From the NCBI GenBank assembly GCA_040954595.2, contig CM082582.2, positions 4,386,303-4,450,302 of the forward strand: a stretch of 64,000 bases of DNA, in the 5' to 3' direction. Of the stretch, positions 3,101 through 64,000 are shown piece after piece; position 1 is the stretch's first letter, and each line of letters begins with the position of its first letter. The translations under genes and the position numbers were made by a program. Below the pieces are notes generated by a model. The model ran no database searches. It saw nothing but the letters and a program-made list of their open reading frames with translations, and was not told the DNA's origin. The DNA comes from Balanoglossus misakiensis (taxonomy: Eukaryota > Animalia > Hemichordata).

Positions 3101-3788
3101 ATATACTCTTGTTTATTTACTTATTTGCAGCCTATAAATTTTTTGAACATGGTACTTTGCTTTACGTAAATTGTAAGGTTTATAACTGCAAAAAATAATA
3201 AGCCAAAGTTATTGTCACAATCTCTGTCTTCATGTATTCACCCTTTCACCCCCAGTTCCCTCTTTAGAGGTCCAACCTTACCATATAAAACATTAGGTTT
3301 GGACTGAACCATGGTGGTGATAGGGTTAATGGAATGCAAAGGAGTTCATACCTCTGTTGGTAGGAAGCCTCCTTCTATCCCTGTGCCAGTGCCAAATGGA
3401 ATCATGGGAAGGTTGTTTGCATAACATAGTTTGGCAACTTTGCTGACTTGTTGTGTGGTCTCCGGCCAAACAACGATATCTGGAGCGTAAGACCTGATGA
3501 CAAGAAAAGGATGATGAACACAACAGGGATCATAACATGCCTCAATGTGAGTGCAAAATCAATGGATTAAATAAATTTGAATAGGCAATATCTGGGAATG
3601 TAGTGTGGGTCAGTGAACGTTGTGTAGACTGGTTGCCATGGCAACCAAGTCAGATGAAACTAGTCTGATGAGGCATGGCAGTGATAAAAATATTATTCAG
3701 TCATATTACCATCACCACCACCACCACCACCACCACCACCATCATCACCATCATCATCATCATCACCACCACCACCACCACCACCACC

Positions 3789-5720: not shown

Positions 5721-7391
5721 AAGTATAAGAATTCATCGCATTACATATCCACGATGAAATCTATATCCCTTTGTTTCAACTGCCATCCACCATGCACTGC
5801 AACTTTGTCGCTTTTGAGCCACAGTCTCGTGTCTGCTGTGTACATTATTATGACCTGTGTCAGATCCAAATCGAGTTCGGGCAGACCTCCAGCGTCAGTA
5901 TAGGGATGGACCATTTCATATCCTTGGGGGGGGGGGGGTCAGGAAGATCGAGAATGTGGAATTTAAACAGCATCTGTAGTTTAGTGTTATCTTGTATGTG
6001 TTTCAACAAGACTAACATATTACAGTTTACAGGTACATGTACCATTAAAACTCAGTTAACTATTACTATACACACAGTGCCAAATAATACATTACTGGAA
6101 CAAAGTGTTTACACTAGATACCTCGTAGTCATACGTGTCATAAAATTAATTTAATAGTCTGTAATGTGTAGGGTATGTTTTGTTGTGTGTTGTGATATGA
6201 TCAATCACATGTAAAGTGATCATAAAATAATAAATTTGTTGAAATACTGACAATTTTTCCACAATTGTGTCACTTTTGTCACCGGGGGGGGGGGGTCGTA
6301 TTTTTTTCCTAATCTCAGGGGTCATACTTACTGGCTCCACACTGGGGGTCGACCAGATTTTACAATACACTGGTGATGTGTAAATCCTGAAAAAAAAATG
6401 CCAGGCACCCAAAACTAGGGAATTGGTACTGTTCCAAAAATTTATCTACAAGAGTTCATTACAGTTGTGTTGCATAGTAGTGATCATATCTGATACTAGA
6501 CAGGCATAGTTCTATAGAAAAGGTGGTTGTTGTTGTTTTTTCACTATACCAAGGTGTAATTCGAGGCATCATGCCTTGGGTAAAGAACAGTCACCAATGG
6601 GTGCTCCCGGCATGGACTGTCTCGTTTCCATCTGTCTTATTGGCTGAAAAACACTGTGACTGGCGCATATTTGACACAGGGAAAGAAGCAAGTAAAAAAA
6701 TTGACACGAAAAGGAAATTATGATAAATACATTTTATTACTAATTTTCCCAATAAAATTGAACATGAAATGTGGCTATATGCATGGTAAAGTGTGTGACA
6801 AAGCTTATAACTAGTGTGTACTTAGGAGTAAAGGTGGTTATAAATAGCACAATTGTACAGAACTGGCTTGGAGCCCCCGAAATAAGAAAAGTTGCAATGT
6901 ACACACATGGAAAATGAACATAATTGAAGATATATATGAAGATATTGTCCATTTACATTTAGCAGCCGAACCTATGCATATAGACACAGTCCCACAAGAA
7001 TGGACAATAAATTCAGTGAGGATTTGTTAATAAACGTACTGACTAGACATATTTGGGTAAAAGTATGACATCTGTCGCCCTTCAAGCATGGAAGTCACCA
7101 AAAAAGACATTATTTTTGGGACTTTACTACACATCTGCGAGTGAATGGTAATTTTTGCTTCTTATGCAATCAAAAAATCCGCATGTACTGGAAAATTTTG
7201 GAAAATATCTTTTTTATTCATTTAAAAAGCGAGAAAGTCTTGTAACAGAGTGATGACAGAGAAGAGAATGTGCTCCATTGTCACAGTTGGCGACAGATAC
7301 TGTTTCTTTCTGTAAAAAATGAGATTGTACATAAAGGCTGGTGGCCTAAAGTACTGAATAAAGCTTGTTATTATATAATAGTATTCCATTT

Positions 7392-9209
7392 TTAAAACCA
7401 TCTCAGTATTTTATTAAACTGACTGTATCTAAGCCAATTTCCGAAAAAATTCATCATGGTCCCATGACGAGTATGTCTTGATATGTCACATGCGGAACTA
7501 TCTTCAACTAATTCGGCACACCACAGACAAATCATAGCGACCCCAAAACACCATCTGTTGTATATGAAAACAACCCAGTACCTATGTGGCAAAATTGATT
7601 CATTGGTAATGAATGCCGCTGCGGCATACATTGCGAACCCTAAGTTCATCATATCTGCTAGAGTGAGTCCTGTAGGAACGATAAATCTATACGGTGATTC
7701 GCCTATATGATGCCCTCTCAAGGTCACGGATAATTCGTATCTTCCTTCCCTCCACAGTACAAATGATAAACGATGTGTTACGCCGTTTTCGCTGCTTTGA
7801 ACAAGTTTCAAGTCCAACACCTTTCCTCTAGGGTCGACCAGAACTGCTTTCAGCTCATCATTGCACCCATGAACGCTCTCGCCATCAAAGTTCTTGGCGT
7901 AAACAGTGAATTCTGCTATTTCACGGACTTCCTTCAGGCTTTTCGCGTTTTCGCATCTCAGTGTGGAGGTCGATGGCAATGCAGGTAATGACCAATTAGT
8001 AAAGTCTGCACGATCACTGACACATAATACGTCATAATTTGATTTGAAATCAGACGACATTGACAGAACCTCGTCGGCGTGATTCAACGCGACTTTACCT
8101 TCCAATACTAACTTCACATCTGTCTTAAGACTCATTACATTTTCCACGTGTAATAAAGCCCGTCGTGAACTGTCTTCTGTTTTCCTTAAGCGCCTGATAT
8201 CTCCCTGGATGTCTCTATTCATTCTAAAATATCGCCCTCTCAGATTTGGAAGAAGTTCTGGGGTGTTTGTTCTTGATCTTTCAGACTCCAGATGCTCGTA
8301 CTGTTCATCCAGTGAAACGCCGCACTCTGTCGCCTTTTTAATGCTCTCAGCAGTAACCATCCTTTTGTTGATCAACTGTTTACTTCGATCTTCAAGGTCA
8401 TTATAAACTATCAAAGCGGCTTCTTTTGGCATCTTGAACTTGTGCGACTCGGAGCCGTGCTCATCCTCTCGGCAAATCTCGCAAGTCAACTTTTTACATG
8501 TTTCACAATACTTATCCAAGTCCTTTTCATGATGCACACAGACTGGGTCAGGATTGTGAATCTTTTCAACTAACTGGGCGACAAGTTCACGCGCCGTTTG
8601 ATTTTGCACAGTGAGTTCCTCTACATGTCTTTGCATTTCCGCTAAAAATAATTTCTGTGTCTCCTTGTCCATACTTTCTTTCTTGAGTTTTTCTATATCA
8701 CTCCTCTTTGCACCAAGGCGTATTAATGCATCGCTAATTTCGCACCAAAGATTTTCAAAGGCTGAAGTGTCTATATTCGTATTGATCATGTGTGCCAAGT
8801 AATTTCTGTATAATTTCACTCGGACAATGTCAGCTTCCATACTATGGTCTTTCTTATGTGGTTGTTTGTCCCAACCAGTTCTCGGCTGTTGCAGGTTGCA
8901 AATGTTCCTGAAAAGGACCATAAACACAGTTATATCAAAGTCTGCTGACGTCACCGATTTTGGAGCTTTTGGGTACAGGATTTCCCACTCCTTTCTGCTT
9001 AATACTCGTCTCGTTTTGAGGTCGTTCAGCGTTCGTTTGTGACCCGGGTGAGCCAGACACGCAGCTAGTGTAGACGGTGGATTCATCTGATCGAAAACGG
9101 CTCTCAATGTTTTGTTTCCTCCGTCCGCGATGAGCCGCCATAGCCGAGCGTGGTTCGTCCTTTCAACAGTTGATCTAAGCTCGTCTGTGAGGTCAATAGG
9201 AGTCGCCAT
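7392..9209 (-). CDS. HEPN (DZIP3-like)-B-box-coiled-coil-filamin protein with C-terminal hydrophobic (predicted TM) tail; RING-less TRIM-like, 605 aa
   Basis: Single open exon from ATG 9209 (MATPIDLT). HEPN signature DFDITVFMVLFRNIC...TGWD...ADIVRVKLYRNYLAH; B-box CVHH..YCETCKKLTCEIC..EH; helical coiled coil; filamin-type ...EGRYELSVTLRGHHIGESPY; two hydrophobic stretches near the C terminus. Confidence 0.88.
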   Translation of the reverse strand: MATPIDLTDELRSTVERTNHARLWRLIADGGNKTLRAVFDQMNPPSTLAACLAHPGHKRTLNDLKTRRVLSRKEWEILYPKAPKSVTSADFDITVFMVLFRNICNLQQPRTGWDKQPHKKDHSMEADIVRVKLYRNYLAHMINTNIDTSAFENLWCEISDALIRLGAKRSDIEKLKKESMDKETQKLFLAEMQRHVEELTVQNQTARELVAQLVEKIHNPDPVCVHHEKDLDKYCETCKKLTCEICREDEHGSESHKFKMPKEAALIVYNDLEDRSKQLINKRMVTAESIKKATECGVSLDEQYEHLESERSRTNTPELLPNLRGRYFRMNRDIQGDIRRLRKTEDSSRRALLHVENVMSLKTDVKLVLEGKVALNHADEVLSMSSDFKSNYDVLCVSDRADFTNWSLPALPSTSTLRCENAKSLKEVREIAEFTVYAKNFDGESVHGCNDELKAVLVDPRGKVLDLKLVQSSENGVTHRLSFVLWREGRYELSVTLRGHHIGESPYRFIVPTGLTLADMMNLGFAMYAAAAFITNESILPHRYWVVFIYNRWCFGVAMICLWCAELVEDSSACDISRHTRHGTMMNFFGNWLRYSQFNKILRWF

Positions 9210-9690
9210 TTTGAAAGAACAATACGATTTATCCGGGGTCGTTGTTCGGGGACAACAGCGATCAAAGATCCACACCCGCCTTGGTAATGGTATATCTCGG
9301 TTGTATAAGGTCCACCTGATGTTACTCTAGCGTTGCAGCACTCCAAATATGACTTTTTACCACCTGCAAACAAAAGAGGATAGTGTATCTTTAAGCGTTG
9401 AAATCTGCACATTTTTGACGGAAACGTAGAGGTACCAGGCAAACACAAAGTACAGCGCTGCCTGCCAATGAATCTTGTTGTGAAAAGCTGTACTCCAAAG
9501 CATAATAGTCAGTGTATTATCCATGTACCTCCACAGGAGGCAGATTTCCCTTGGAGTGATAGTTTTACTTACAGATTGGGTTGCGTTCGGTCACTCAAAA
9601 CAATAAGTTTAGGATTTTGTTTTTGGGAACGTCATTGTATTGTGAGGGAATCCCCATGTATCCCACTGTGCTCTGCGCTGTAAGTTAAGC

Positions 9691-9710
9691 CATAGACTCT
9701 AGGGTCTATG
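9691..9710. mobile_element. 20-bp palindromic mini-insertion flanked by a 7-bp direct repeat
   Basis: GTTAAGC-[CATAGACTCTAGGGTCTATG]-GTTAAGC; the insert is self-complementary except for one pair. Confidence 0.55.
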
Positions 9711-10381
9711 GTTAAGCACGATCGCAGGAGGTGAATGTTTGGATATATGCTTATAAGGCTTTGGCCAAAACAAAACACTTTCCTGTTGGTTTTTCTCATT
9801 CGTTAGTAGGTTTAGAAATACGGGTTGGAGAAACAAAAATTGTAACCATAAGGTTATCTATGTGGCGCCCCCTGTACATGTACTGTCCTTCGTCAAAAGA
9901 ATGCATAGCCCCTCCAATCAACGTCACTCCACATCAGCCCGTACATTTAGCTTACCGATCTTCTGAACCCTCTTCTCGTTATTTGAGCACAGCTAAAGAT
10001 ATTTGAAACTGGGTGTGTGAGTGAAAAAATCGAAAGGACATACTTGGTATTTTGGTATAGGTTTGTGGACCCCCGGCTTTGAGCGCCCCCACTGGCCAAC
10101 TTCAATTTTTTCCCTTGTCCTCTGAATGACGTCTGATAATTACTGGTCGCAGCCCACAACACATATTCTTTACTATCAATCACGTTATCTGGCCATGTGA
10201 CCCACGGCGTTGTCATTTTCAGATGACGGGCAAGCAATATTTCGGCATCCAGAAAAAGATTTTCTGAGTATGTTTTTACTTTAGAGCCGCCAAACACATA
10301 ACATGTATCAGGTATGGTGCCTCGACGTAAAGTCCACGTTGCTGAAGTTGCCCTTTCGCATTCACATTTCCAGATGACGGG

Positions 10382-10869
10382 CATGGTGCAGTGGTGAGCT
10401 GAAAGCAGTTCTGGTCGACCCTAGAGGAAAGGTGTTGGACTTGAAACTTGTTCAAAGCAGCGAAAACGGCGTAACACACCGTCTATCATTTGTACTGTGG
10501 AGGGAAGGAAGACACGAATTATCCGTGACTCTGAGAGGGCATCATATAGGCGAATCACCGTATAGATTTATCGTTCCTACAGGACAAACTGTAGCAGATA
10601 AAGTGAACCTGTCGTTCGCAACATTTGCAGGAGCAGCATTCCTTACCAGTGAATCAATTACTCCACATAACTGGTATTTTTTCATATGCCACAGAATATG
10701 CTTTGCGGGCCTTATGCTTTGTGTATGGTGTGCCGAATCAGCTGTAGATAGTTCCGCATGTGACATATCAAGACATACTCGTCACGGGACCATAATGACG
10801 TTTTTCGGAACTTGGATTAGATACAGTCAGTTTCACAAATACTGGGGTCATTTTGTGAACAGTCTATAG
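10382..10869 (+). pseudogene. 5'-truncated inverted paralogue of the 3' end (half filamin + TM tail) of the 7392-9209 gene
   Basis: 10395-10584 matches the reverse complement of 7668-7857 with 5 mismatches in 190 nt, then a diverged but open tail to TAG at 10867-10869. No HEPN, B-box or start codon upstream. Confidence 0.85.
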
Positions 10870-12224
10870 TATACCCAAAACCTTGCATCGCTATGCGGAT
10901 CCTGATAGAGATCACTTTTGGCCAATCAGGCACTTTCATTACTAGGCCCAATCACACATCGAGTTTACCCTCTCAATGACAATGTAGCAATTTGTGCTTA
11001 TGTTATTACGTCCGTCTCATGTTCTTTTACAACTTTTGGAATTTTCCCGTCAGTTGGGTTCTAGCGGTTGAGTTATTACAGCAATAAACGTGCCTTTTGC
11101 ACTTAATGTTGGTCGTGCGTGTCAGACATCATTTAAGGAACCTTGTTCATCTAAAATACCGCAACAGATTTTTATAAATATATATATATATATATGGCGG
11201 AATATTGAAATAGTTTTCTAAGCTTTCTTGGAAAAAGTCGATAAATTAAAAGGCCATACAACATAAATCAATGATATATATATATGCTTAATTAAAGATT
11301 GTATTTTTGGACGATTCAGACATCGTCAGAGTCGAGCTACGAAGTTGGGTTATTTAAACATTTGTGCAATCACCAGGAAACATTAGTGATGATTGTGAAT
11401 TCAAAATAAGTTCTCTCGTCATACAACCTAGTGTAAAGGCGACCGTTACTGTCTATCCCAAACAACAGGTCAATTTTGGATTATTCATAGGTTGATGTTT
11501 TGAACTTGAGCCGCACTCCCCCCCCCCGTATGAAAATAGGGGGAGTACCCCCGGGTGTATCGGCTACGAATGACCCTGGAATGTCAGGTCAGAGTCTATT
11601 TTGTCAATCAACAATCTGTGTGCCCTGTTTAACTAAGTTGTAGCCTGGGTGCTTGCGCCGATCGGTCGATCATACAACGGATATGATCGTCATTTGATGG
11701 AAACCAGGACTGGTATGTAATATCTCTGAAACCTGATCATTAGTACTCAAAACTAGGCGAGGCACAGAACTATTTCAACAGACCTACCACAATGCATATT
11801 TCATCATATCCGGGTGTTATCAAGTCTGTCGCAGCGGTGTCATTCAGACTTTGGTCTTTGAATCCAGATCATGCAAAAGATATCGATCAACTTGTTGGTA
11901 ATATGGTAAGCTCATTTTAATGGGGCGTTGGAGACGGCATGCACAATGTTAGTAATATCATGATTGCACCATTACACAGATGTATAATTAACTTTTGTTT
12001 TCATTTTTGTCATTCCTTATATTCAGTTCGTTGATTTAGCTAAGTCGTGTTGATGTTATGAATCACGTTGTTGTTAAACCACCTGTTGGAATGTCCTACT
12101 GCAGACAGACAGTGTACTTGACTGTCCAGGCCCCGTCCAGGGTCGGTCTGTTTGAACCTGTCAAGAAAATTACCTATATGTGTTGTCACTATCTTTACTG
12201 CAGGCTGTCGACTTTTGAAACAAT

Positions 12225-14597
12225 ATGGCGTCAAACTTTGACCTGTCCGAACCCCTGGCAACGACAACTGAGAAGACAAACCATGACCGTCTCTGCAGAC
12301 TTGTCAAGGAAGGGGGCACCATAGCGCTTAAGGCCTTATTTGATCGTGTCAACCCACCAAAGCAACTGGCCACCAATCTAGCAGATCCCAACGTGAAGAC
12401 GATTCTACAGAGTGTTCTACGACGGAAACTGATCACACAGAAGCAACATATGATTCTATACCCAACTCCTTTGAGCGCGGTCAGTTCAGGTAACTTTGAT
12501 ATAACTCTATTGATGGTTCTACTCAGAAATATGTGCAATCTGAAGCAACCGAAAACAGGATGGGATAACCTTCCCCGACCTAGTGATGTCTCTATCGAGG
12601 CCGATATTTGCCGAATTAAGTTCTATCGCAACAAACTGTGTCACGGACAAACAGCGAGCGTCAGTAACAGTCATTTTAACGGTTACTGGGGTGATATATG
12701 CAGCGCACTCGTACGTTTGGGAGCTGACAGACAGGCCATTGACAGATTGAAAACTGATATCATGGACAGCGAATTAGAGCAACGAGAAACGGAGGAAGTG
12801 CTTGACAGGGCCAGAGAAGGCATCGCTGTGAAAGATCTGCTTCAGTCCATCTTGAAGTCAATCTTCACGAAGAAAATCGAGGAAATTACGTGCAGCGTTC
12901 ACGAAAATAATCCAATTGAGCTTTACTGCACAGACTGTCAAGTGCCAATTTGCTACACATGTGGACTGGGAAAACACAAAGAGTCCAAAGATCACGTTCT
13001 CATGGACTTGAAGGACGCCGCCCATAACTACAAAGACACCATTCTCATCGAATATGACGAGGAACTTAAAACGAAAGAGGCCGAAGTTGCCGAAAACATC
13101 GTCATCGCCAGAAAAAGCTACGACTCCCTCGAAGAAAACTTGACCGTTCAGACAAAGAAACTTGATAACCTGTCTGAATGCGAGGAAGTGAAGAAACATG
13201 AACTTCGAGAACAGCTTATCTCGCAATACAAGTCCTTGAGAGATGAAATGAAGACTGAAGTAGACAGATTCAGTAACCTTGCCCAAACCTTTAAACATAC
13301 GCGTGCTTTCATTAAGAGTCTTCTGCAAATTGAAAGCGAAGCTAAATTGATGTCTGAAAGCACTGTTCTAACGCAACAAATCAATGAAACTTTGCGTTTG
13401 GAAACCGAGATGGAAAAGAATTATGACGTCATCGGTGAAATCAGTTTGTCACCAACGCCCTCCATGTCTCTGCCTGCCCTGCCGTCGTTGACTTTCCTGG
13501 ATACATTTGATGTTCCTAAGCATATTGACGCCGGGGACACCATAACAATGGACATGGTGGCTTTAAATATTGACTGCGAAAAGGTCACAGACAGCGAACA
13601 CTTCGAAGCGGCGGTAGTCTATGGCGATAATCGGAGTGAGAGATTAGAGATAGTTTCGTCAGACGGCATTGAAGAAACTCATTTTATCTCTTTCACCGCA
13701 AGCAAATCCGGTAAACAAGAAATATCTGTGAAGTTGCGTGGAAATCATATTAAGGGATCACCTTTACAGATAGACGTGTTACCGACTTTGAAATTGTCCC
13801 GTATTCCTTGCAGACAATACGCACAACCAGATGGAGCGAAATTCGCCTGCAGTTTAACAACGGATAACCATGGCAACTTGGTGCTGGGAGACAAAACCTT
13901 GGGGCGGATACAGATAATCGAGAAAGATGGGCGTGAGAAAGGAAATTTCACAGTGTCGCTGGGAGTTGGATCATTCACTCCACAGGCTGTGGCGGTCTCT
14001 GAAGATGACGAGTTATTTTGCGTCAACCGCGGAAACAGAGCAGCTCCAGTAGTGGTGTGCGATGTGCGCGGGGCCGTCGTGCGGACATTTGGTCAGAACA
14101 AACTGAAGGGATATGCCACTGGCATCGCTATCGATAAATCCCGAGGCATTGTCTATGTGGGCGACGACGGAGCTTCAACCATACACGCGTTTCTAACCAG
14201 AGATGGCAGCTTTGTGAAATCGTTCGGTCACGTGACATTTCCAACTTCCATCTCTGTTAACAGCGCTGGTGACGTCATCGTTACCGACAGCAAGGAATCT
14301 AACGTCCAGGTGTTCAATTCGGACTGCGAGTTCCTCTTTGCCTTCGGTTATTTTGGCGTCAATGAAGGGGAATTTTGTCTTCCGGTTGGCTTGGCAGTCG
14401 ACAGGTTCGACAACATGTACATATGCGATACGGGCAACCATCGGGTACAGATGTTTGATCGAGAAGGAAAATTTCTCAAATTCTGCATCAAAATCGGAGT
14501 GCAGTATCCAGAATACATTGCGATATCAGATAACCGCGTTTTTGTCACGGATTCAGAAGACAAGTTCTCGGTAAAATATCTACACAACGAAGTATAG
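12225..14597 (+). CDS. HEPN (DZIP3-like)-B-box-coiled-coil-filamin-NHL protein; RING-less TRIM-NHL-like, 790 aa
   Basis: Single open exon. HEPN NFDITLLMVLLRNMC...TGWD...ADICRIKFYRNKLCH; B-box CSVH..LYCTDCQVPICYTC..KH; coiled coil; filamin ...GKQEISVKLRGNHIKGSP; NHL repeats (e.g. GEFCLPVGLAVDRFDNMYICDTGNHRVQMFD). Likely 5'UTR splice acceptor at 12202. Confidence 0.92.
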   Translation: MASNFDLSEPLATTTEKTNHDRLCRLVKEGGTIALKALFDRVNPPKQLATNLADPNVKTILQSVLRRKLITQKQHMILYPTPLSAVSSGNFDITLLMVLLRNMCNLKQPKTGWDNLPRPSDVSIEADICRIKFYRNKLCHGQTASVSNSHFNGYWGDICSALVRLGADRQAIDRLKTDIMDSELEQRETEEVLDRAREGIAVKDLLQSILKSIFTKKIEEITCSVHENNPIELYCTDCQVPICYTCGLGKHKESKDHVLMDLKDAAHNYKDTILIEYDEELKTKEAEVAENIVIARKSYDSLEENLTVQTKKLDNLSECEEVKKHELREQLISQYKSLRDEMKTEVDRFSNLAQTFKHTRAFIKSLLQIESEAKLMSESTVLTQQINETLRLETEMEKNYDVIGEISLSPTPSMSLPALPSLTFLDTFDVPKHIDAGDTITMDMVALNIDCEKVTDSEHFEAAVVYGDNRSERLEIVSSDGIEETHFISFTASKSGKQEISVKLRGNHIKGSPLQIDVLPTLKLSRIPCRQYAQPDGAKFACSLTTDNHGNLVLGDKTLGRIQIIEKDGREKGNFTVSLGVGSFTPQAVAVSEDDELFCVNRGNRAAPVVVCDVRGAVVRTFGQNKLKGYATGIAIDKSRGIVYVGDDGASTIHAFLTRDGSFVKSFGHVTFPTSISVNSAGDVIVTDSKESNVQVFNSDCEFLFAFGYFGVNEGEFCLPVGLAVDRFDNMYICDTGNHRVQMFDREGKFLKFCIKIGVQYPEYIAISDNRVFVTDSEDKFSVKYLHNEV

Positions 14598-19970: not shown

Positions 19971-20603
19971 GTGAGTAGCTAGTCGCTTCCAGAATGTAGT
20001 AGTCATATCCGTAGTCTCTCACTATTTTCCACATTTTTGTTTCTCCACGAGTCTTTCCAAGTATTCCTAATACCAGCAGTGATGTGGCCGGACTGTTCAG
20101 ATTTACCGGCCAATTCTGACCACGGAGCTAGCTCCATGTTCAGACCGATCCAGTATTGGATATCGAATTACGTGTCGTGTATCACGATTCATTGAAACCT
20201 GATCGAATGAATAATTCGTAGAAGAGAAACTAATCTTATACTGGAAAAATTCCCCTTTCTTCACTTTGTCCATGGATAATGATAGCATGACTGAACAAGA
20301 AATTGTGATTACCAGACATTGCATAAGCGGTTCTTGTAAAACTGTTTTTCTTCGAATATTTTCGAAACCAGAAACCAAATTTCCGAATAAGTTCTAAACC
20401 GTGCACGCTTTAAGCAAATATTAATAACACTTTTTTTATACGGGTTGGCGGTACGACCGATGAGCACAATTACCACATTCAATGTCATGGACCCTTGAGT
20501 GAATGTACATCCCGGTGTCTTGTTGGTATGACATCATGCATCATTACGTTACAATATTTTGTTTCTCTTCTTCATATTCAGGTGATTCATTTGCATAAAC
20601 AAA

Positions 20604-21527
20604 ATGAAGTCTGCAATCGTTTTGGCAGTGTTTCTGCTCGCCGTTTCACACCTCAGCGACGGACGACCGACAGAAGAAAAGTTCAACACCACTGACGTCA
20701 ACACAAACGTCGAGAACCCCACAAAAGATATGAGTGACGTCACCGACGAAAAGATTTCTGAAGACAAGCCAGGAAAGAACTTGCTTGTTAAAATGGAAAA
20801 GGAGTTATACATCGTAGAAAAGTTGAAGGCTATCATCGAAAAGACCGAAAAGATTTATGGAGATATCTTTAGAGAAGAGGACGACGAAGAAAGCAGCGGT
20901 GACATGGATGTAAGTAAACGGCGATGCAACCATTTTGTAAACCCTCTCCATAAACTTGTCAGTGGTACGCAAAGCATTGTAAAACATGCGGATTGATAAA
21001 AATCAAGCGATACTTGATATCTGTGTCGTTTAATGCTGTGCTATCAATACGTAACGACTTGAAATCATGGAGGGGATACTAATATTTTACGCAGCACCAA
21101 GCTCTGGAAACTTGAACTTGTCGGGTTTCCTATAGTCTGCCATCTGTTAGTAGTAAAATGCATGCATACATTTTTGTATTTTGAGGAAATTTTCTCATAC
21201 ATTTTGGTTTGTTTTTCCTCACATTTGGCTGCATATTCTGCCAGACGTGCATTTGTCTTCCCACACTCTTGCTAACCCCTTTCCCAACCACTTTGGCAAA
21301 CTTTAATTCAGGTGAGCGAGGAGAGTAGGGAAAGCGAGGAGGATAAAGATGAGAGCGGGGAGAGTGAGGCAGACAGCGAAGACGAAAGTAGTGAAGAAAG
21401 CAACAGTGACGTTGATGTAAGTGAACAGCAATGCAACCATTTTGTATAGTAGGCCCCCTGAGCCTCTCCAAAACATGATACTGTACACAAAGCAAAACGA
21501 ACGACATCCTAAAACATGTGGATTGGT

Positions 21528-21562
<35 letters not shown>

Positions 21563-22502
21563 GCAATATTTGAAATAAACCATATCGGTTTTTAGTGCTA
21601 TCAACACGCAACGACTTGAAATCATGGAGGGGATACTAAGATTTTACTCAATACAAAGCTCTGGACAAGACGGAAACGTAATCAAACTTGAACTTGTTGG
21701 GTTTCCTAGTGTACGGTGCCACCTGTTAGAAGTAAAACGTATACATTTTTACTATGATATTTTGAGGAAGTTTCCTCATCCATTGCACTTTGTTTTTCCT
21801 TTCACTTGGCTGTATTTTGCAACAAGTGCATTTGTCTTCCCAAATTCTTGCTAACCCCTTTTCCAACCCCTTTGGCAAACTTTAATTCAGGTGAGCGAGG
21901 AAAGCAGGGAAAGCGAGGAGGATGAAGAACGCTTTCGACGGGATGTGAGCGGGGAGAGTGAGGCAGACAGCGAAGACGAAAGTAGTGAAGGAAGCAGCGA
22001 TAACGAAGAGAACAGTTCAGGGGAAGTTGTAGACAACGAGGAAACCGAAGACAACGACGAGGAAACCGAAGACAACGACGAGGAGACCAAAGACAACGAC
22101 CAGGAGACCGAAGAGAACGACGAGGAAACCGAAGACAACGACGATGAGACCGAAGAGAACGACGAGGAGACCGACGAGAACGACGAGGAAACCGAAGACA
22201 ACGACGAGGAAACCGAAGACAACGACGATGAGACCGAAGAGAACGACGAGGAGACCGACGAGAACGACGAGGAAACCGAAGACAACGACCAGGAGACCGA
22301 AGAGAACGACGAGGAAACCGAAGAGAACGACGATGAGACCGAAGAGGACGACGAGGAGACCGAAGACAACGACGAGGAGACCGAAGACAACGACCAGGAG
22401 ACCGAAGAGAACGACGAGGAAACCGAAGAGAACGACGATGAGACCGAAGAGGACGACGAGGAGACCGAAGAGAACGATGAGGAAACCGAAGAGAACAAGT
22501 GA
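20604..22502 (+). CDS. Secreted, highly acidic Asp/Glu-rich low-complexity protein (~340 aa)
   Basis: Signal peptide MKSAIVLAVFLLAVSHLSDG. Exons 20604-20909, 21312-21416 and 21891-22502 are joined by phase-0 GT-AG introns. Many S-x-E motifs, an RFRR furin-type site and 22 heptad repeats. Confidence 0.85.
22038..22499 (+). repeat. Coding 21-bp tandem repeat x22 encoding (E/D/Q)ET(E/D/K)(D/E)(N/D)D
   Basis: Unit GAGGAAACCGAAGACAACGAC and variants. Confidence 0.95.
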
Positions 22503-24527: not shown

Positions 24528-44067
<19,540 letters not shown>

Positions 44068-47679: not shown

Positions 47680-48238
47680 TTAATCGTTCTTAACATTCAC
47701 CTCTTCTCTGCAACACACTAGATACACATCAACATCACAGCTTGGAAGGGATGCATAAAATTTAAATGAAGCTATTTTATTAAGAGCAAGCATTCTGGTC
47801 TGTGTAAAACCAATCCACTTTATTGTCTCTGTTGATTTTGCCCTTGGCAGTGCTACATAAAGTTGGTCAGGAACAAATTCACTCCCAGCATGCACCACAA
47901 CACGTGGCAACGTCTGACCCTGTGACTTGTGGGCTGCTATTGGCCCAACATAATTTCAGAGGATGCTGGGAACGCCTACCGATCTCTTTGCCTGTATCAC
48001 TTTTCACAGTCCATGTTTTATGTGGGATTGTACACTGGATATTCTTGTCCATGAACATGACCACAGGATGTCCATCTTCATCGACTCCTCTAAATGTGCC
48101 AATGCATCCATTATGTAACTCCTGGGATAGATTGTATAGTAGCATTACTGGAGCTCCTTTTTCTACAAGCAACATCTTTGGAGCAGTGCAACCTTTCTTG
48201 ATTTCCTGATGGTTTCTTTCATCTATTCTAGGGAACAT
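47680..48238 (-). pseudogene. PIF1-family (SF1B) helicase C-terminal fragment, frameshifted
   Basis: GAPVMLLYNL..LHNGCIG, RSQHPLKLCWA, then a frameshift, then KSQGQTLPRVVVH..FVPDQLYVALPRA. These are PIF1 motifs IV-VI; no Walker A half is visible. Confidence 0.8.
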
Positions 48239-48927
48239 GTAGAATTTGCATGTTTATTCGTTCAGGCTTTTGTACATTTTTTAGTCTTGCAGATTGTATA
48301 CCAGTAAGCAAAACACATTATTTTTCACCTCTGTAACTTTTTCCTCCCACCAACCCGATTAACAATTATGTTGTTGATAGACCACACTTTGCAGAATTTG
48401 TATTTTCATGACTGCAATTGTTCTGTAGTTTGTATTTCAAATGTTTATATACTGTAACATATCCTTATAACTTGCCCGTTTCTTGTTATAGTTGGCTTGC
48501 AATTACTTGTAATTGGCCAGCAGGAGCCTTTCCATTACCTGATTAAACACAGGCTCTTGCCCTAACCTGCAAATCAGTTGTTCTGTGGAGTTTTATTTCA
48601 CCAGGTTACGACTAATTAATAGATTTGAACACGTGGTATTTATAAGTATTTACCAGGCATATTATCAAACTCACACATGTTGTAGAAGTCGGCATCTGTA
48701 TTGTTGAATGCGGGTTGAATTATGATATATCAGAGGGTACCATAATGTGATGAGAAACTGTCCCAGTAACTCTCTCTACTCTACATCACATCTGCCAATT
48801 CGTATTGAATTTAGGGCCTGGTTTATATTGTTTTGACTGTCCTGCTGTCTCTAAGTGGTATTCCGAAGAATGGTGTGGTAACTTTCCATAATGGGGATAA
48901 AATGCACACTCTCCGAGCAGAGGTTTC

Positions 48928-50439: not shown

Positions 50440-54374
<3,935 letters not shown>

Positions 54375-56079: not shown

Positions 56080-58195
56080 TTATAAAGTTTCAACATTATC
56101 GGTAGCGGGAGTGTTCCTCTTATTGGAAACTACAGCACTGTCTCGCGGTTTCTCTCTACATTTTCTGGCGATTTTGACCGCGCCAAAAGCCAAAAACAGC
56201 AGTGCACCCTGTAGAGAATTTAATGTGGCCGAAATGTAACTGATTTCCTCTGCTTCCAGAACTATGTCAATCAGGGTAATGCTCCACGTCAGCCCCATCA
56301 AAATAAACGCCTTGGCACACATGACAAAGTGTCGCTTCCAAATGGCGCGCTTGCCGAGTTTGGCAGCGTTGGCCGACGAGCTGATGACGAACCACATGGT
56401 CAACGCGAAACAGCCTGCGTTGAAAACAAACGTCGCGGCCACAGGGCCGACGAAAAACACGAGCAGAGCCTGCTTGTTGCGAATCCAGCATATGTCGTCT
56501 CTGCCATAGCCAAGCTCGTATCCCCCCACCCCGCTGACATCCAAAAACACTGCAGTGCCCACCAGGGGCAGTGGTAATAACCACCCGGTCAGGCAGTACA
56601 CCACAAAAAGGCGCCGACCTTGACTGACGTACAGCGCCTGCTTGACAGATTGGAACGTGCGGAAAATGTCAAAACTCACAACTGACAGCCAAGTGAAATT
56701 TGCGGACCAAGCATAGTGCAAAAACACGGCTATGTAGAAGCACAAACTTGGTAGTTCATTCAGAATCATGCTTGAGAGAAGGGCTGACTGAGAAATCAAC
56801 ATGGAAACGACCATATTGACCATCAGTTTCCCGGGCATATTATGCATGGATTTGTTCAAACGGTAGACGGCAAGAAACGCAATTAGGCAGACGATAGACA
56901 AGGCGGAGAACACTACGGTCAACCACGAGAGTATGGCAGAGGGGCTTCCATTCAGGGGCAAACAGACTAGAGCAAAGGAATTATTACCGATGATTTTAAA
57001 GAATTTTGTCGCAGTGGTAATATTGAAAATTTGGAAAATAAGAATTTCGTTGTCCAGGTGGAAATCTCCGCGGCTTAAAATTAGCGGGCTTGCAGCTTTC
57101 GGACACTGGATAGAACTGTTTTCAAGTCCGTTTTCACTGTGGTTTAGGTGACCGGCAGGGACAACCGCTCTTCGCTCTCCCGTCAGGCCCACACAACCTT
57201 TCAGTGAGAGGTCATAGACTTGGTTTTCGGAACATGAAATTTCGCTAGTAAAGTTGACGGAAAAAGCGTTGTCCGATTCACCAGCAACACTCAGCCATGG
57301 CGTGCCACGCCTGCTGAGGTCAAACAACAAATGTAGCGAATATATCTTTCTGCCTATCGTCGGAAAGGGCTTCTTACCGCACAAGTCTGACGTCACAGAG
57401 ACACCATTGCACAAAGCACAATTTACATTCCCGTACAATAGTTTTCCCTGACTGTGGACTATGGTAATGGGGGAATAGTATGATTGGCATACACGTTGCA
57501 TTTCATTAAATTCCTCTTTTCTTTCGGATTCGTAGAGTGACGAGTTGCATGAGTCAACATACGGACTACACGATCTAACAGTTCCTCCAGTAATTTCTGC
57601 CATCGCCACGTCGGCATCGTCTGACGTTAGATCAGAGATCTCGACAATTTTCATATAGTTTGCGAATGTTTCGTTGAAGCTACCCAGCCTATGAGCGAAA
57701 GACTTAGTGAACATTACCATTACGTGCCACATCACAATTTCTGAGCTGTTTCGTCCGTTGCATATCGCACAGTATATGTTGCGATAGAATTCGGACTCTG
57801 CTGGCCACGTGACTGGTGTCGTCACAATCGATAGACCTGGAATGGAGTAAAGGAAGAACAATTTCAAGAATTTCTTTCCGTTTAGTGGTTTTTGGTTAAA
57901 TGTGTAAGTTAAGTTAAGTGCACCGTTCCCAGAATATTCATAGTAGACCTGCCCACAGCTGGGACATAAACAGATATGGGTCTAGCATGAGAGAGGCTCT
58001 ATTATGGATGGAAGGAGAGGGAGAGAGGGAGGGAGCGGTTGAAGACGGGGGGGGGGGCAGAGAGGATTGGAAAGAGAGGAGAAGAGTGGGACGGGAGAGG
58101 GAGTCTGATAGGAGGGAAACAGGAGAGGGCAAGGGAAAGGGGATAAATCTCGATAGCGATTGAGAAAGAGAAAGAGAGAGAGATTGTGAGAGAGG

Positions 58196-58258
<63 letters not shown>

Positions 58259-59067
58259 GGAGAGAGAGAGAGATTGAGATAGAGAGAGATTGAGAGAGAG
58301 AGATTGAGAGAGAGAGAGAGATTGAGAGAGAGAGATTGAGAGACAGAGAGATTGAGAGAGAGAGAGAGATTGAGAGATTGAGAGAGAAAGAGAGAGAGAG
58401 ATTGAGAGACAGAGACAGAGAGAGAGACTGGTAGACGGATATAAAGAGTTTGTATGGATTTGCTTTAAAGCATGCGATTTTTATGATATACAGCGGTCTC
58501 GTTTAGGTTGGTTTTGATTTGTCAGTTCCGTTGTCAAGTCACTCTGCAGACAAGCAGTCTTCGTAACAGATGTATACGACGTGCATATCAATACATATAT
58601 ACATGTGTACATGTAGGTTATTTCTTACCTAAGGGTGCTTCTGTTTCACATTTTTCCCTTGTAAAACTATCTCGCCATGTTTCGGGGCACTTTGCGATCA
58701 ACCAAACATGCGGGTCAAACCCCTGATCGGAGGTGGCGACGTGGACACAGCTCTGCCGATAATCTCTCGTTTCCGGTCCAGATGTACTCTGGGGGCCGGG
58801 AATTGTTGCGTTTGCGCAGACACTTTGGCGGTCAAAACAACAGTCACCGTACCGCGGGCAGTCGGAGTCACAGCGGCACATCCAGGGCTCTCGATTCTGC
58901 GCTTCGGCTTGGTAGTTGGAAAGTCTGCCGCAGTGGGATTGGCCGTCAGGGCGGGAACATGAGTCGGGGCAACAGAGCGTGTCGTTGCCATTGCACAGAC
59001 TATCTCGTACGTCATAACCAAAAATGTGCACACAAAAATGTACCAAGATCAGCTGAAGTAACAACAT
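56080..59067 (-). CDS. Family B (Methuselah-like/adhesion-like) GPCR with N-terminal somatomedin-B-like domain, ~731 aa
   Basis: Exon 58629-59067 (signal peptide; CRCDSDCPRYGDCCFD) is spliced in phase 1 to 56080-57836 (YRNIYCAICN and YGNVNCALCN Cys motifs; 7TM with HNMPGK, LHYAWSANFTWL, GWLLP, CWI, LMGLTW, LNSLQG). Confidence 0.88.
58160..58428. repeat. (GA)n/(GAGATT) microsatellite in the GPCR intron
   Basis: Directly visible. Confidence 0.95.
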
Positions 59068-59447
59068 TTTTCTGACAATGTCCTAGAAATAAGAATCAGA
59101 AGATTCGTTTTAATGAAAAATGCAATTTCACCAGAAACAAAATGCAATTTGAACAGATTACAGAAGACAAAACTAATCGTGATATCTGCATGTCAAACTA
59201 TTCTTTCTCTCTCCGTTTCCCAAACCTAAACAAAAATCACAAATTCTGTCTTCTACAGACAACTGCTGAAATCTGTCCGTTTCTACTTTTAATCATGGTA
59301 AATACTAGTTCTAACTAAAATGTGCAAGGCTTGAACGTTTTTGTCTTGACAATAGTTGAAGAAAATTATTTTCGTTTCCATATTTTTCTTGAAGGACACA
59401 TAGTTCTCAGGTTAGGTTTTCTGCAAAGTTCAGTAAACCAGTTTCTT

Positions 59448-63211: not shown

Positions 63212-63537
63212 ATGATTAAGCAGGTGAAGGAGAAAGACACAAAAGGAAGCAAATATGATGGGTCGAGTAAGGGAACGTTTAAGACGGGTGATGAGTCTTT
63301 TCCGAGTGAAGGAAATACAGGATGTGGATGGCCTATGGCTACTCATACTGGAACAAGTGATTCGTAAGTTTGAATTCGATTTAATACGAGTACTTCTTTA
63401 TCATAAAATATAAAAAAAAATATGAAAAAAAGCAGCATTGCATTGTGTCATTAAACTTACTATTAAGTTGTTAGTGGTCTTTAGGAGTAATAGAATTATA
63501 TCTTTAAGACACTTTGTTTCCCTCTTTCTACAGGGCC

Positions 63538-64000
63538 ATGGCTAAAAGTCTGACGCTTGCTATAGTCGGTCCAGCAGGCAGCGGCAAGAGTGCCACATGC
63601 AACACTATACTGGAAAGAAAAGCGTTTACCAGTCGACGTTCAATGGCTTCAACTACCAAACAGACTGTGTCAGCAGAATGCATCAAAGGGAGACGCATCA
63701 CCGTAATTGACACACCGCCACTTCCAGACAGTCGTGGAGAGGTAACTTGCGAGACGCTGTCCAGAGAAATGAAACGTTGCATGGACATTGCAACAGAGGG
63801 AGACCGTAAAGGTCTTGACGCCATCATACTCACATTAAATGCAAATGATCGTTTTACGCAGGAAAGTATTAATGGTATTGAATTTGTTCGCAATTTGTTT
63901 GGGCAGAAGTTTGTCAATTTCTTGATTATAGTTTTTACAAGGAAAGATCAGTTTGATTCAGAGGATGTAAACCTTAGTCAGTCCTTGTACAGCGACGAAA
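63538..64000 (+). CDS. GIMAP/AIG1-family GTPase domain (partial, runs off the window end)
   Basis: Open frame MAKSLTLAIVGPAGSGKSATCNTIL (G1)...RRITVIDTPP (G3)...DRFTQE...IIVFTRKD (G4), preceded by a splice acceptor at 63533. It is absent from the ORF track because there is no stop codon in the window. Confidence 0.9.
   Translation, partial: MAKSLTLAIVGPAGSGKSATCNTILERKAFTSRRSMASTTKQTVSAECIKGRRITVIDTPPLPDSRGEVTCETLSREMKRCMDIATEGDRKGLDAIILTLNANDRFTQESINGIEFVRNLFGQKFVNFLIIVFTRKDQFDSEDVNLSQSLYSDE

What the first reader, a model, noticed from the sequence alone, without database searches (positions are those of the whole stretch)
7668..10869. Inverted spare C-terminal cassette: an inversion would swap the tail of the HEPN-TRIM gene
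Seen: 10395-10584 (+) is an inverted copy of 7668-7857 with only 5 mismatches in 190 nt, and the first ~84 nt are identical. The rest of the gene (HEPN, B-box, coiled coil, splice acceptor at ~9364, candidate upstream donors at 9572 and 9955) lies between the two copies. A crossover in the shared filamin segment would invert ~2.5 kb and fuse the gene in frame to the alternative tail, which is still open to its own stop. Inference: this is either the scar of a past inversion/duplication or a shufflon-like or gene-conversion donor arrangement that diversifies the tail. No recombinase or specific recombination site is visible.
Basis: partly seen in the sequence, partly recalled or inferred. Interest (0 to 1): 0.7.

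Follow-up and report, generated by a model that had tools for sequence, protein, structure and literature searches.

The report
Inverted leftover of an immune-gene paralogue
An inverted copy of the last 460 bases of a HEPN-TRIM-like gene is really there, but it is likely the cut-off remnant of a sister gene in a variable gene family rather than a DNA switch, and flipping it would only exchange one version of the same tail for another.

Summary
The inverted repeat is real: 7668-7857 vs 10395-10584, 5 mismatches in 190 nt, first 84 identical. A crossover would give a 608-aa open frame. But the homology does not stop there. The arms run 7404-7867 vs 10385-10844 (87%), so the 'alternative tail' is a diverged paralogue of the gene's own tail (56 of 95 residues identical), not a different module. 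Identity is patchy: about 97%, then 75%, then 90%. The right arm starts exactly where a very high-copy transposon-like repeat ends. Public contigs (one sample, possibly the window's source) hold a second gene body joined in frame to the same filamin segment, a third core type and a second right-type tail. So this is a multi-copy, mosaic family. No recombinase or short site was found in the window. Orientation could not be tested, because the contigs cannot phase across the 84- and 54-nt identical runs. Verdict: most likely a 5'-truncated paralogue relic, kept similar in patches by ordinary germline gene conversion and earlier purifying selection. A rare homologous inversion is possible; a programmed shufflon is unsupported. 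Side result: the post-filamin segment varies strongly yet mostly keeps its frame.

The parts
7392..9209 (-). g1: single coding exon, 605 aa; HEPN_DZIP3 (45-186, Rx4H motif present), B-box (221-258), inferred coiled coil, Filamin (427-508), 91-aa hydrophobic tail with no database relative found
   Evidence: tail searches
7404..7867 (-). left arm of the full inverted repeat (3' half of filamin plus tail of g1)
7668..7857 (-). high-identity core of the left arm (5 mismatches in 190; longest perfect runs 84 and 54 nt)
9363..9390 (-). splice-acceptor consensus upstream of g1 (AG at 9365-9364); candidate donors at 9572 and 9955 unverified
   Evidence: letters only
10165..10384 (.). very high-copy, transposon-like repeat: sharp left edge at 10164/10165, imperfect inverted ends 10183-10200 / 10362-10379; the right arm begins about where its right end would be expected (inferred)
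   Evidence: (summed depth up to 8e4 in X1 and 4e5 in X2; many unlike loose ends before 10164/10165)
10385..10869 (+). right arm: 5'-truncated paralogue fragment, open frame 10378-10869 (163 aa, half filamin plus tail), no start codon of its own, in-frame stop at 10375-10377
10395..10584 (+). high-identity core of the right arm
10586..10735 (+). variable post-filamin segment (25% nt difference from g1; pN 0.27, pS 0.23); further variants in public contigs
10735..10844 (+). distal conserved block (about 10% difference, with a 39-nt perfect run)
10856..11137 (.). moderately repeated sequence at the outer edge of the fragment (bounds approximate)
   Evidence: depth 700-5000 and loose ends
12225..14597 (+). 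g2: distant paralogue, 790 aa, HEPN-B-box-Filamin-NHL, 32% identical to g1, head-to-head with g1

Best explanation
The right arm is likely the 5'-truncated relic of a close paralogue of g1, left in inverted orientation within a multi-copy HEPN-B-box-filamin family, and its patchy similarity to g1 likely comes from ordinary germline gene conversion plus earlier purifying selection on filamin. Shown: the two arms are homologous over 464 nt, tail included; identity steps from about 97% to 75% to 90%; the fragment begins at the edge of a very high-copy repeat; other family members with intact bodies and other core and tail types exist. Inferred: a paralogue's 5' part was lost, or never copied, at the repeat; the fragment is not expressed on its own; sequence moves between copies by non-allelic recombination. 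A crossover in the core would invert 2.5 kb and swap about 40% of the tail residues, but it would be a rare homology-driven event, not a programmed switch.
For: The tails are homologous. The step in identity is not chance: change point at 10586, 0 of 2000 permutations, Fisher p 7e-8. One search shows a second gene body joined at 10387; its 30-letter loose end reads in frame and differs from g1 at 8 of 30 letters (hand count), right beside a segment shared by all copies. By bin arithmetic its depth is 26.3, the same figure as the contig that leaves g1 at 8000 and rejoins at 8468, so it is probably one mosaic paralogue or allele. A third core type shares 10409-10438 and then differs by 19 letters and a 6-nt insertion; a second right-type tail has 14 other letters and 3 one-base gaps within 10660-10733. 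A high-copy repeat abuts the fragment's 5' edge. The best + strand acceptor (10373) leads straight into a stop in the fragment's frame. The longest perfect run is 84 nt, below the 134-232 bp at which recombination fell 20-fold in mouse cells (PMC2583991, passages). HEPN_DZIP3 genes show copy-number change and rearrangement between haplotypes in pearl oyster (PMC9646362, passages).
Against: Conversion is not proven for the core. Synonymous difference in core vs variable segment is 0.082 vs 0.233 but not significant (p 0.11), while the non-synonymous contrast is (p 4e-10), so selection alone could give much of the step. The fragment's frame is open, also in the second tail type, and 4 of the 5 length differences seen among copies are multiples of 3; that fits use, or recent loss of use. 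PMC2583991 also reports recombination on matches under 50 bp when repeats lie about 5 kb apart, so an inversion here is not excluded. The MEPS figures are from mammals. The three runs are one sample that may be the window's own source.
Confidence: 0.68

Rival explanations
1. A full-length, working paralogue stood here until very recently and may still stand on other haplotypes. The core is conserved by purifying selection, not conversion, and the fragment is a fresh deletion allele.
For: Open frame; core pN 0.020 vs pS 0.082 (p 0.065); synonymous contrast not significant; a second intact gene body exists in the contigs.
Against: An 84-nt perfect run and only 4 synonymous differences in 66 codons sit beside 23% synonymous difference. 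The second body differs at 8 of 30 letters right next to the shared segment. No homology upstream of 10385 (shuffle tests 234-285 of 1000). A stop-free tail has probability 0.14-0.30 under neutral substitution, so the open frame is weak evidence.
Confidence: 0.14
2. A segregating germline inversion: homologous recombination between the arms has flipped the 2.5-kb segment at least once, so some haplotypes express g1 with the right-arm tail.
For: The geometry allows it and the product is in frame, 608 aa. The arms are 2.5 kb apart. Both tails are open. Repeated flips plus allelic recombination would homogenise the core (inference).
Against: An inversion alone cannot create two tails for one body, so a duplication or deletion is needed anyway. 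The perfect runs are short. No contig joint or 21 requires an inversion: the 7682-to-10712 'opposite strand' joint is a diverged third copy, seen as a same-strand replacement.
Confidence: 0.12
3. A programmed, shufflon-like or somatic conversion system that diversifies the tail within an animal.
For: Donor-like anatomy: 5'-truncated, with conserved blocks flanking a variable segment. Several variants of that segment occur in one sample. The domains are typical of immune gene expansions.
Against: One cassette only; no short site; no recombinase family among 40 of 63 ORFs. Only a handful of variant types appear, each at a depth like that of the flanking contigs, as expected for paralogues and alleles (depth is a weak guide).
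Confidence: 0.03
4. Assembly artefact: a false join at the high-copy repeat, or haplotype mixing, placed a paralogue's 3' end here.
For: The junction lies at a repeat of very high copy number.
Against: The right core and tail are found letter for letter in X1 contigs over 10449-10760, and in X2 on to 10862 with 3 other letters, so the sequence itself is real; only its place is unverified.
Confidence: 0.03

Closest known systems
Birth-and-death immune gene clusters of invertebrates with fragments, inverted repeats and conversion (amphioxus VCBP, PMC2632668; sea urchin Sp185/333, PMC3091723; passages read)
   Same: Linked paralogues in mixed orientation, gene fragments, repeats inside the cluster, patchy homogenisation ascribed to gene conversion.
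   Different: Different protein family; here a single half-gene faces its paralogue at 2.5 kb.
DZIP3/hRUL138-like HEPN gene expansions in pearl oyster (PMC9646362, passages)
   Same: HEPN_DZIP3 domain with Rx4H motif (g1 and g2); copy-number change and rearrangement between haplotypes.
   Different: The passages seen describe mainly NACHT fusions and do not mention a B-box-filamin architecture or this tail.
TRIM-NHL / TRIM45-like proteins (B-box, coiled coil, filamin, with or without NHL)
   Same: B-box and filamin order; g2 has NHL repeats and aligns over about 90% of residues 180-790 to RING-B-box-filamin-NHL proteins. The nearest Atlas cluster for g1 is TRIM45-like at 0.77, a lead only.
   Different: HEPN stands where the RING is; g1 has a hydrophobic tail in place of NHL, with no match to an NHL profile in any frame.
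Bacterial shufflons and silent-cassette antigenic variation (R64 shufflon, Neisseria pilS, chicken pseudo-V donors; features recalled, no paper read)
   Same: Constant 5' part plus an alternative 3' end in inverted orientation; a truncated copy with conserved flanks around a variable stretch.
   Different: No recombinase, no short sites, one cassette, homologous rather than unrelated tails; no evidence of directed or somatic exchange.

Membership tests
Shufflon (site-specific multiple inversion; features recalled) | dedicated site-specific recombinase next to the cassettes | tested here: not met
   No recombinase or integrase Pfam hit in 40 of 63 window ORFs of at least 120 aa; the rest are simple-repeat frames. 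A trans-acting enzyme elsewhere is not excluded.
Shufflon (site-specific multiple inversion; features recalled) | short repeated recombination sites bounding unrelated cassettes | tested here: not met
   The arms are 464-nt homologues including the tails.
Shufflon (site-specific multiple inversion; features recalled) | several alternative 3' cassettes | tested here: not met
   tblastn of g1 finds only g1, the fragment and g2 in the window.
Shufflon (site-specific multiple inversion; features recalled) | both orientations coexist in one clone or individual | not testable with these tools
   Only short-word contigs were available; they cannot phase across 84- and 54-nt identical runs.
Silent-donor gene conversion system (features recalled) | 5'-truncated donor with conserved blocks flanking a variable region | tested here: met
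   About 97% / 75% / 90% blocks; no start codon; in-frame stop upstream.
Silent-donor gene conversion system (features recalled) | directed transfer of donor tracts into an expressed locus within an individual | not testable with these tools
   No raw reads and no tissue pairs.
Silent-donor gene conversion system (features recalled) | many donors | tested here: inconclusive
   One in the window; other core and tail types in contigs cannot be placed; no genome held.
Mosaic multigene family with paralogue fragments | three or more related copies | tested here: met
   Left, right and third core types; two gene bodies.
Mosaic multigene family with paralogue fragments | patchwork identity between copies | tested here: met
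   Change point significant, 0 of 2000 permutations; abrupt switches in the third copy.
Mosaic multigene family with paralogue fragments | conversion shown at synonymous sites | tested here: inconclusive
   pS 0.082 vs 0.233, p 0.11.
TRIM (RING-B-box-coiled coil) | N-terminal RING | tested here: not met
   No RING hit; HEPN_DZIP3 at residues 45-186. An upstream coding exon is not excluded.
TRIM (RING-B-box-coiled coil) | B-box | tested here: met
   PF00643, E 4.5e-5, 24.0 bits against a cut-off of 24.1 in g1; E 7e-10 in g2.
TRIM (RING-B-box-coiled coil) | coiled coil | not tested
   Inferred from position and composition only.

The most novel reading that the evidence does not exclude
The fragment is an active silent donor and inversion partner that swaps a hypervariable, helical, probably membrane-associated tail onto a HEPN RNase-TRIM sensor, in the germline at high rate or somatically: a pilS-like or shufflon-like diversifier in an invertebrate innate-immune gene with an undescribed architecture.
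Probability: 0.07. Interest if true: 0.78.

Novelty: new member of a known kind. Interest (0 to 1): 0.27.

Why it matters
As best explained, it is an ordinary product of turnover in an invertebrate immune-type gene family and matters little. Two things keep some value. The pair is a compact test case (2.5 kb, PCR-able) for whether short inverted paralogue fragments flip or convert in an invertebrate. And the HEPN-B-box-filamin protein with a variable, mostly frame-preserving hydrophobic tail had no relative for the tail in the searches run and no relevant paper in one search. If exchange proved somatic or very frequent, it would be a new route to receptor diversity outside vertebrates.

Tried and rejected
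No whole genome is held, so paralogues could not be placed. No RNA holder was listed; this says nothing on expression. No contig was laid on 10366-10382, so the repeat-fragment junction was not seen; records are filtered, so the hole proves nothing. Two depth models (haploid about 16 with six copies, or about 28 with three) fit the shared piece equally (84.4 vs 84), so copy number and the right core's upstream partner stay open. The 7682-to-10712 'opposite strand' joint was rejected as an inversion junction: it is a diverged third copy. The 10233-to-10396 joint is unresolved and probably concerns the repeat's own inverted ends. The 8000-to-8468 skip first looked like a deletion allele; it more likely marks a diverged stretch of the second gene body. 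Terminal-exon reading rejected: the best acceptor leads into a stop, and the others have weak pyrimidine tracts. Retrocopy reading: no poly(A) within 30 nt after the stop. Tail as a decayed or antisense NHL propeller: no hit to a 14-sequence TRIM-NHL profile in six frames, none in Pfam. AlphaFold on two sequences gave pLDDT 43, unusable beyond a hint of three helices. Homology beyond the arms: none inward; outward only a weak signal (8 of 1000 shuffles at 220 nt, not at 60 or 120). No Rfam family in 7000-12300. Earlier-findings look-ups were empty. Paper searches for shufflons in animals and HEPN+TRIM+filamin+NHL listed nothing relevant; only listings were seen for those.

Full report
OBSERVATION. 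The repeat is as described: 5 mismatches in 190 nt, the first at position 85, with 2537 nt between the cores. g1 (9209-7392, minus strand, 605 aa) carries HEPN_DZIP3, a B-box and a Filamin domain. An in-silico crossover in the core gives a 608-aa frame. BLASTN aligns 7404-7867 with 10385-10844 at 87% over 464 nt, and the two tails share 56 of 95 aligned residues. An inversion would therefore exchange two versions of one module. Inverted pairs of this size are not rare here: 5 pairs of at least 100 nt lie in the window.

ANATOMY. Identity runs in blocks: about 97% up to 10585, 75% over the next 147 aligned nt, 90% over the last 113. The step is significant (0 of 2000 permutations; Fisher p 7e-8). 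By codon: core pS 0.082, pN 0.020; variable segment pS 0.233, pN 0.267; distal block pS 0.136, pN 0.074. The non-synonymous contrast is strong (p 4e-10), the synonymous one is not (p 0.11), so conversion and selection are not separated by these two copies alone. The longest perfect runs are 84, 54 and 39 nt. The fragment has no start codon and an in-frame stop at 10375-10377; the best + strand acceptor (10373) leads into that stop. Directly upstream lies a very high-copy repeat with a sharp left edge at 10164/10165 and imperfect inverted ends at 10183-10200 / 10362-10379; I read it as a transposon relic cut at the fragment (inference; no family assigned). No homology to g1 continues inward. 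g2 (12225-14597, plus strand; HEPN-B-box-Filamin-NHL; 32% identical) sits head-to-head with g1. g1's tail matched nothing in Pfam, the Atlas, 1.84 billion representatives (139 hits, best stretches essentially on the filamin part) or the word-indexed collection (0 of 542 candidates).

OTHER SEQUENCE DATA. Three DNA runs hold the stretch, all one sample and one study, kept as contigs. The sample may be the window's own source, so it is not independent support. Laid on the right arm, X1 has the right core and tail with no other letters over 10449-10760, and also the left core. It further has (i) a third core type, sharing 10409-10438 and then differing by 19 letters and a 6-nt insertion; (ii) a tail replaced by 147 letters where the window has 141; (iii) a second right-type tail with 14 other letters and three one-base gaps in 10660-10733, whose frame stays open (3 of the 14 letters match g1, the rest match neither arm); (iv) a second gene body joined at 10387, whose 30-letter loose end reads in frame and differs from g1 at 8 of 30 letters and 5 of 10 residues (hand comparison). 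Bin arithmetic gives that contig a depth of 26.3, the figure of the contig that leaves g1 at 8000 and rejoins at 8468; they are probably one record, a mosaic paralogue or a very diverged allele. Tables were cut (8 of 17 X1 records shown), so more types may exist. Of 5 length differences seen among copies, 4 are multiples of three; the fifth is the 1-nt gap near 10833 that changes only the last few codons. Contigs built from short words cannot link body to tail across the 84- and 54-nt identical runs, so orientation is untested.

MECHANISM. Shown: homologous arms, block-wise identity, truncation at a high-copy repeat, several family members with abrupt switches between near-identity and strong divergence. 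Inferred: the right arm is what remains of a close paralogue, or a partial duplicate of one; non-allelic recombination among family members moves tracts between copies in the germline; earlier purifying selection held the filamin half. An inversion alone cannot give one body two tails, so a duplication or deletion is needed in every model. A crossover in the core remains possible. In mammalian cells recombination fell 20-fold when perfect homology dropped from 232 to 134 bp, yet events on matches under 50 bp were seen between alpha-globin repeats 5 kb apart (PMC2583991, passages; PMC3966225 passages give over 200 bp for mouse cells). The open frame is weak evidence of use: 14-30% of neutral simulations stay stop-free. 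Whether an inverted state would be expressed depends on where g1's promoter lies, which is unknown.

COMPARISON. It resembles the fragment-rich, conversion-shaped clusters of amphioxus VCBP (PMC2632668, passages) and sea urchin Sp185/333 (PMC3091723, passages), and the haplotype-variable HEPN_DZIP3 expansions of pearl oyster (PMC9646362, passages). It fails the shufflon tests that could be run: no recombinase in 40 of 63 ORFs scanned, no short sites, one cassette. It meets the anatomical feature of a silent donor but none of the dynamic ones could be tested; those systems are recalled, not read here. g1 works like a RING-less TRIM with a HEPN domain bearing the Rx4H motif; RNase activity is predicted only. 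Six paper searches listed no description of this architecture or of an animal shufflon; the library lacks most subscription papers and no supplements were read.

VERDICT. Observation confirmed, interpretation partly supported. Most likely a 5'-truncated paralogue relic in a mosaic immune-type family (0.68); fresh deletion of a working paralogue 0.14; germline inversion polymorphism 0.12; programmed switch 0.03; misplacement 0.03. Interest 0.27.

Noticed in passing
window 12225-14597 (+): Intact single-exon HEPN_DZIP3-B-box-Filamin-NHL gene (790 aa): a TRIM-NHL layout with HEPN in place of RING, Rx4H motif present, acceptor at about 12203.
   Followed up: partly
window 7495-7667 and 10586-10735; contigs: The roughly 50 codons after filamin vary strongly among at least four sequence types while mostly keeping frame; pN is about equal to pS between the two window copies.
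   Followed up: partly
window 8001-8467; One contig type leaves g1 at 8000 and rejoins at 8468: a diverged or replaced coiled-coil stretch in a second gene body.
   Followed up: partly
window 53218-54134: Two nested near-perfect inverted repeats (133 nt at 100%, 155 nt at 99%) just after a single-exon ligand-gated ion channel ORF (52096-53166).
   Followed up: no
window 28428-28621 and 39765-39957: 194-nt inverted pair at 93%, 11 kb apart; probably a dispersed repeat.
   Followed up: no
window 47882-48253 (-): Pif1 helicase 2B-domain fragment (E 5e-5, just under the curated cut-off); possibly a Helitron-type relic (inference).
   Followed up: no
window 63508-63999 (+): AIG1/GIMAP-family GTPase ORF running off the window's end (E 7e-32).
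   Followed up: no
window 56083-59082 (-): Secretin-family 7TM ORF (633 aa) with an upstream Somatomedin-B-like ORF, separated by a GA-rich repeat.
   Followed up: no
window 20586-22500 (+): Secreted-looking acidic protein with duplicated exon-intron units of about 560-590 nt and a 21-nt tandem array.
   Followed up: no
window 37601-38026 (+): Exon that resembles CPSF1 (name recalled, no call supports it; no Pfam hit).
   Followed up: no
window 3237-3329, 29960-30037, 37429-37522, 43589-43838: A 93-nt dispersed element with inverted ends in five copies, MITE-like.
   Followed up: no
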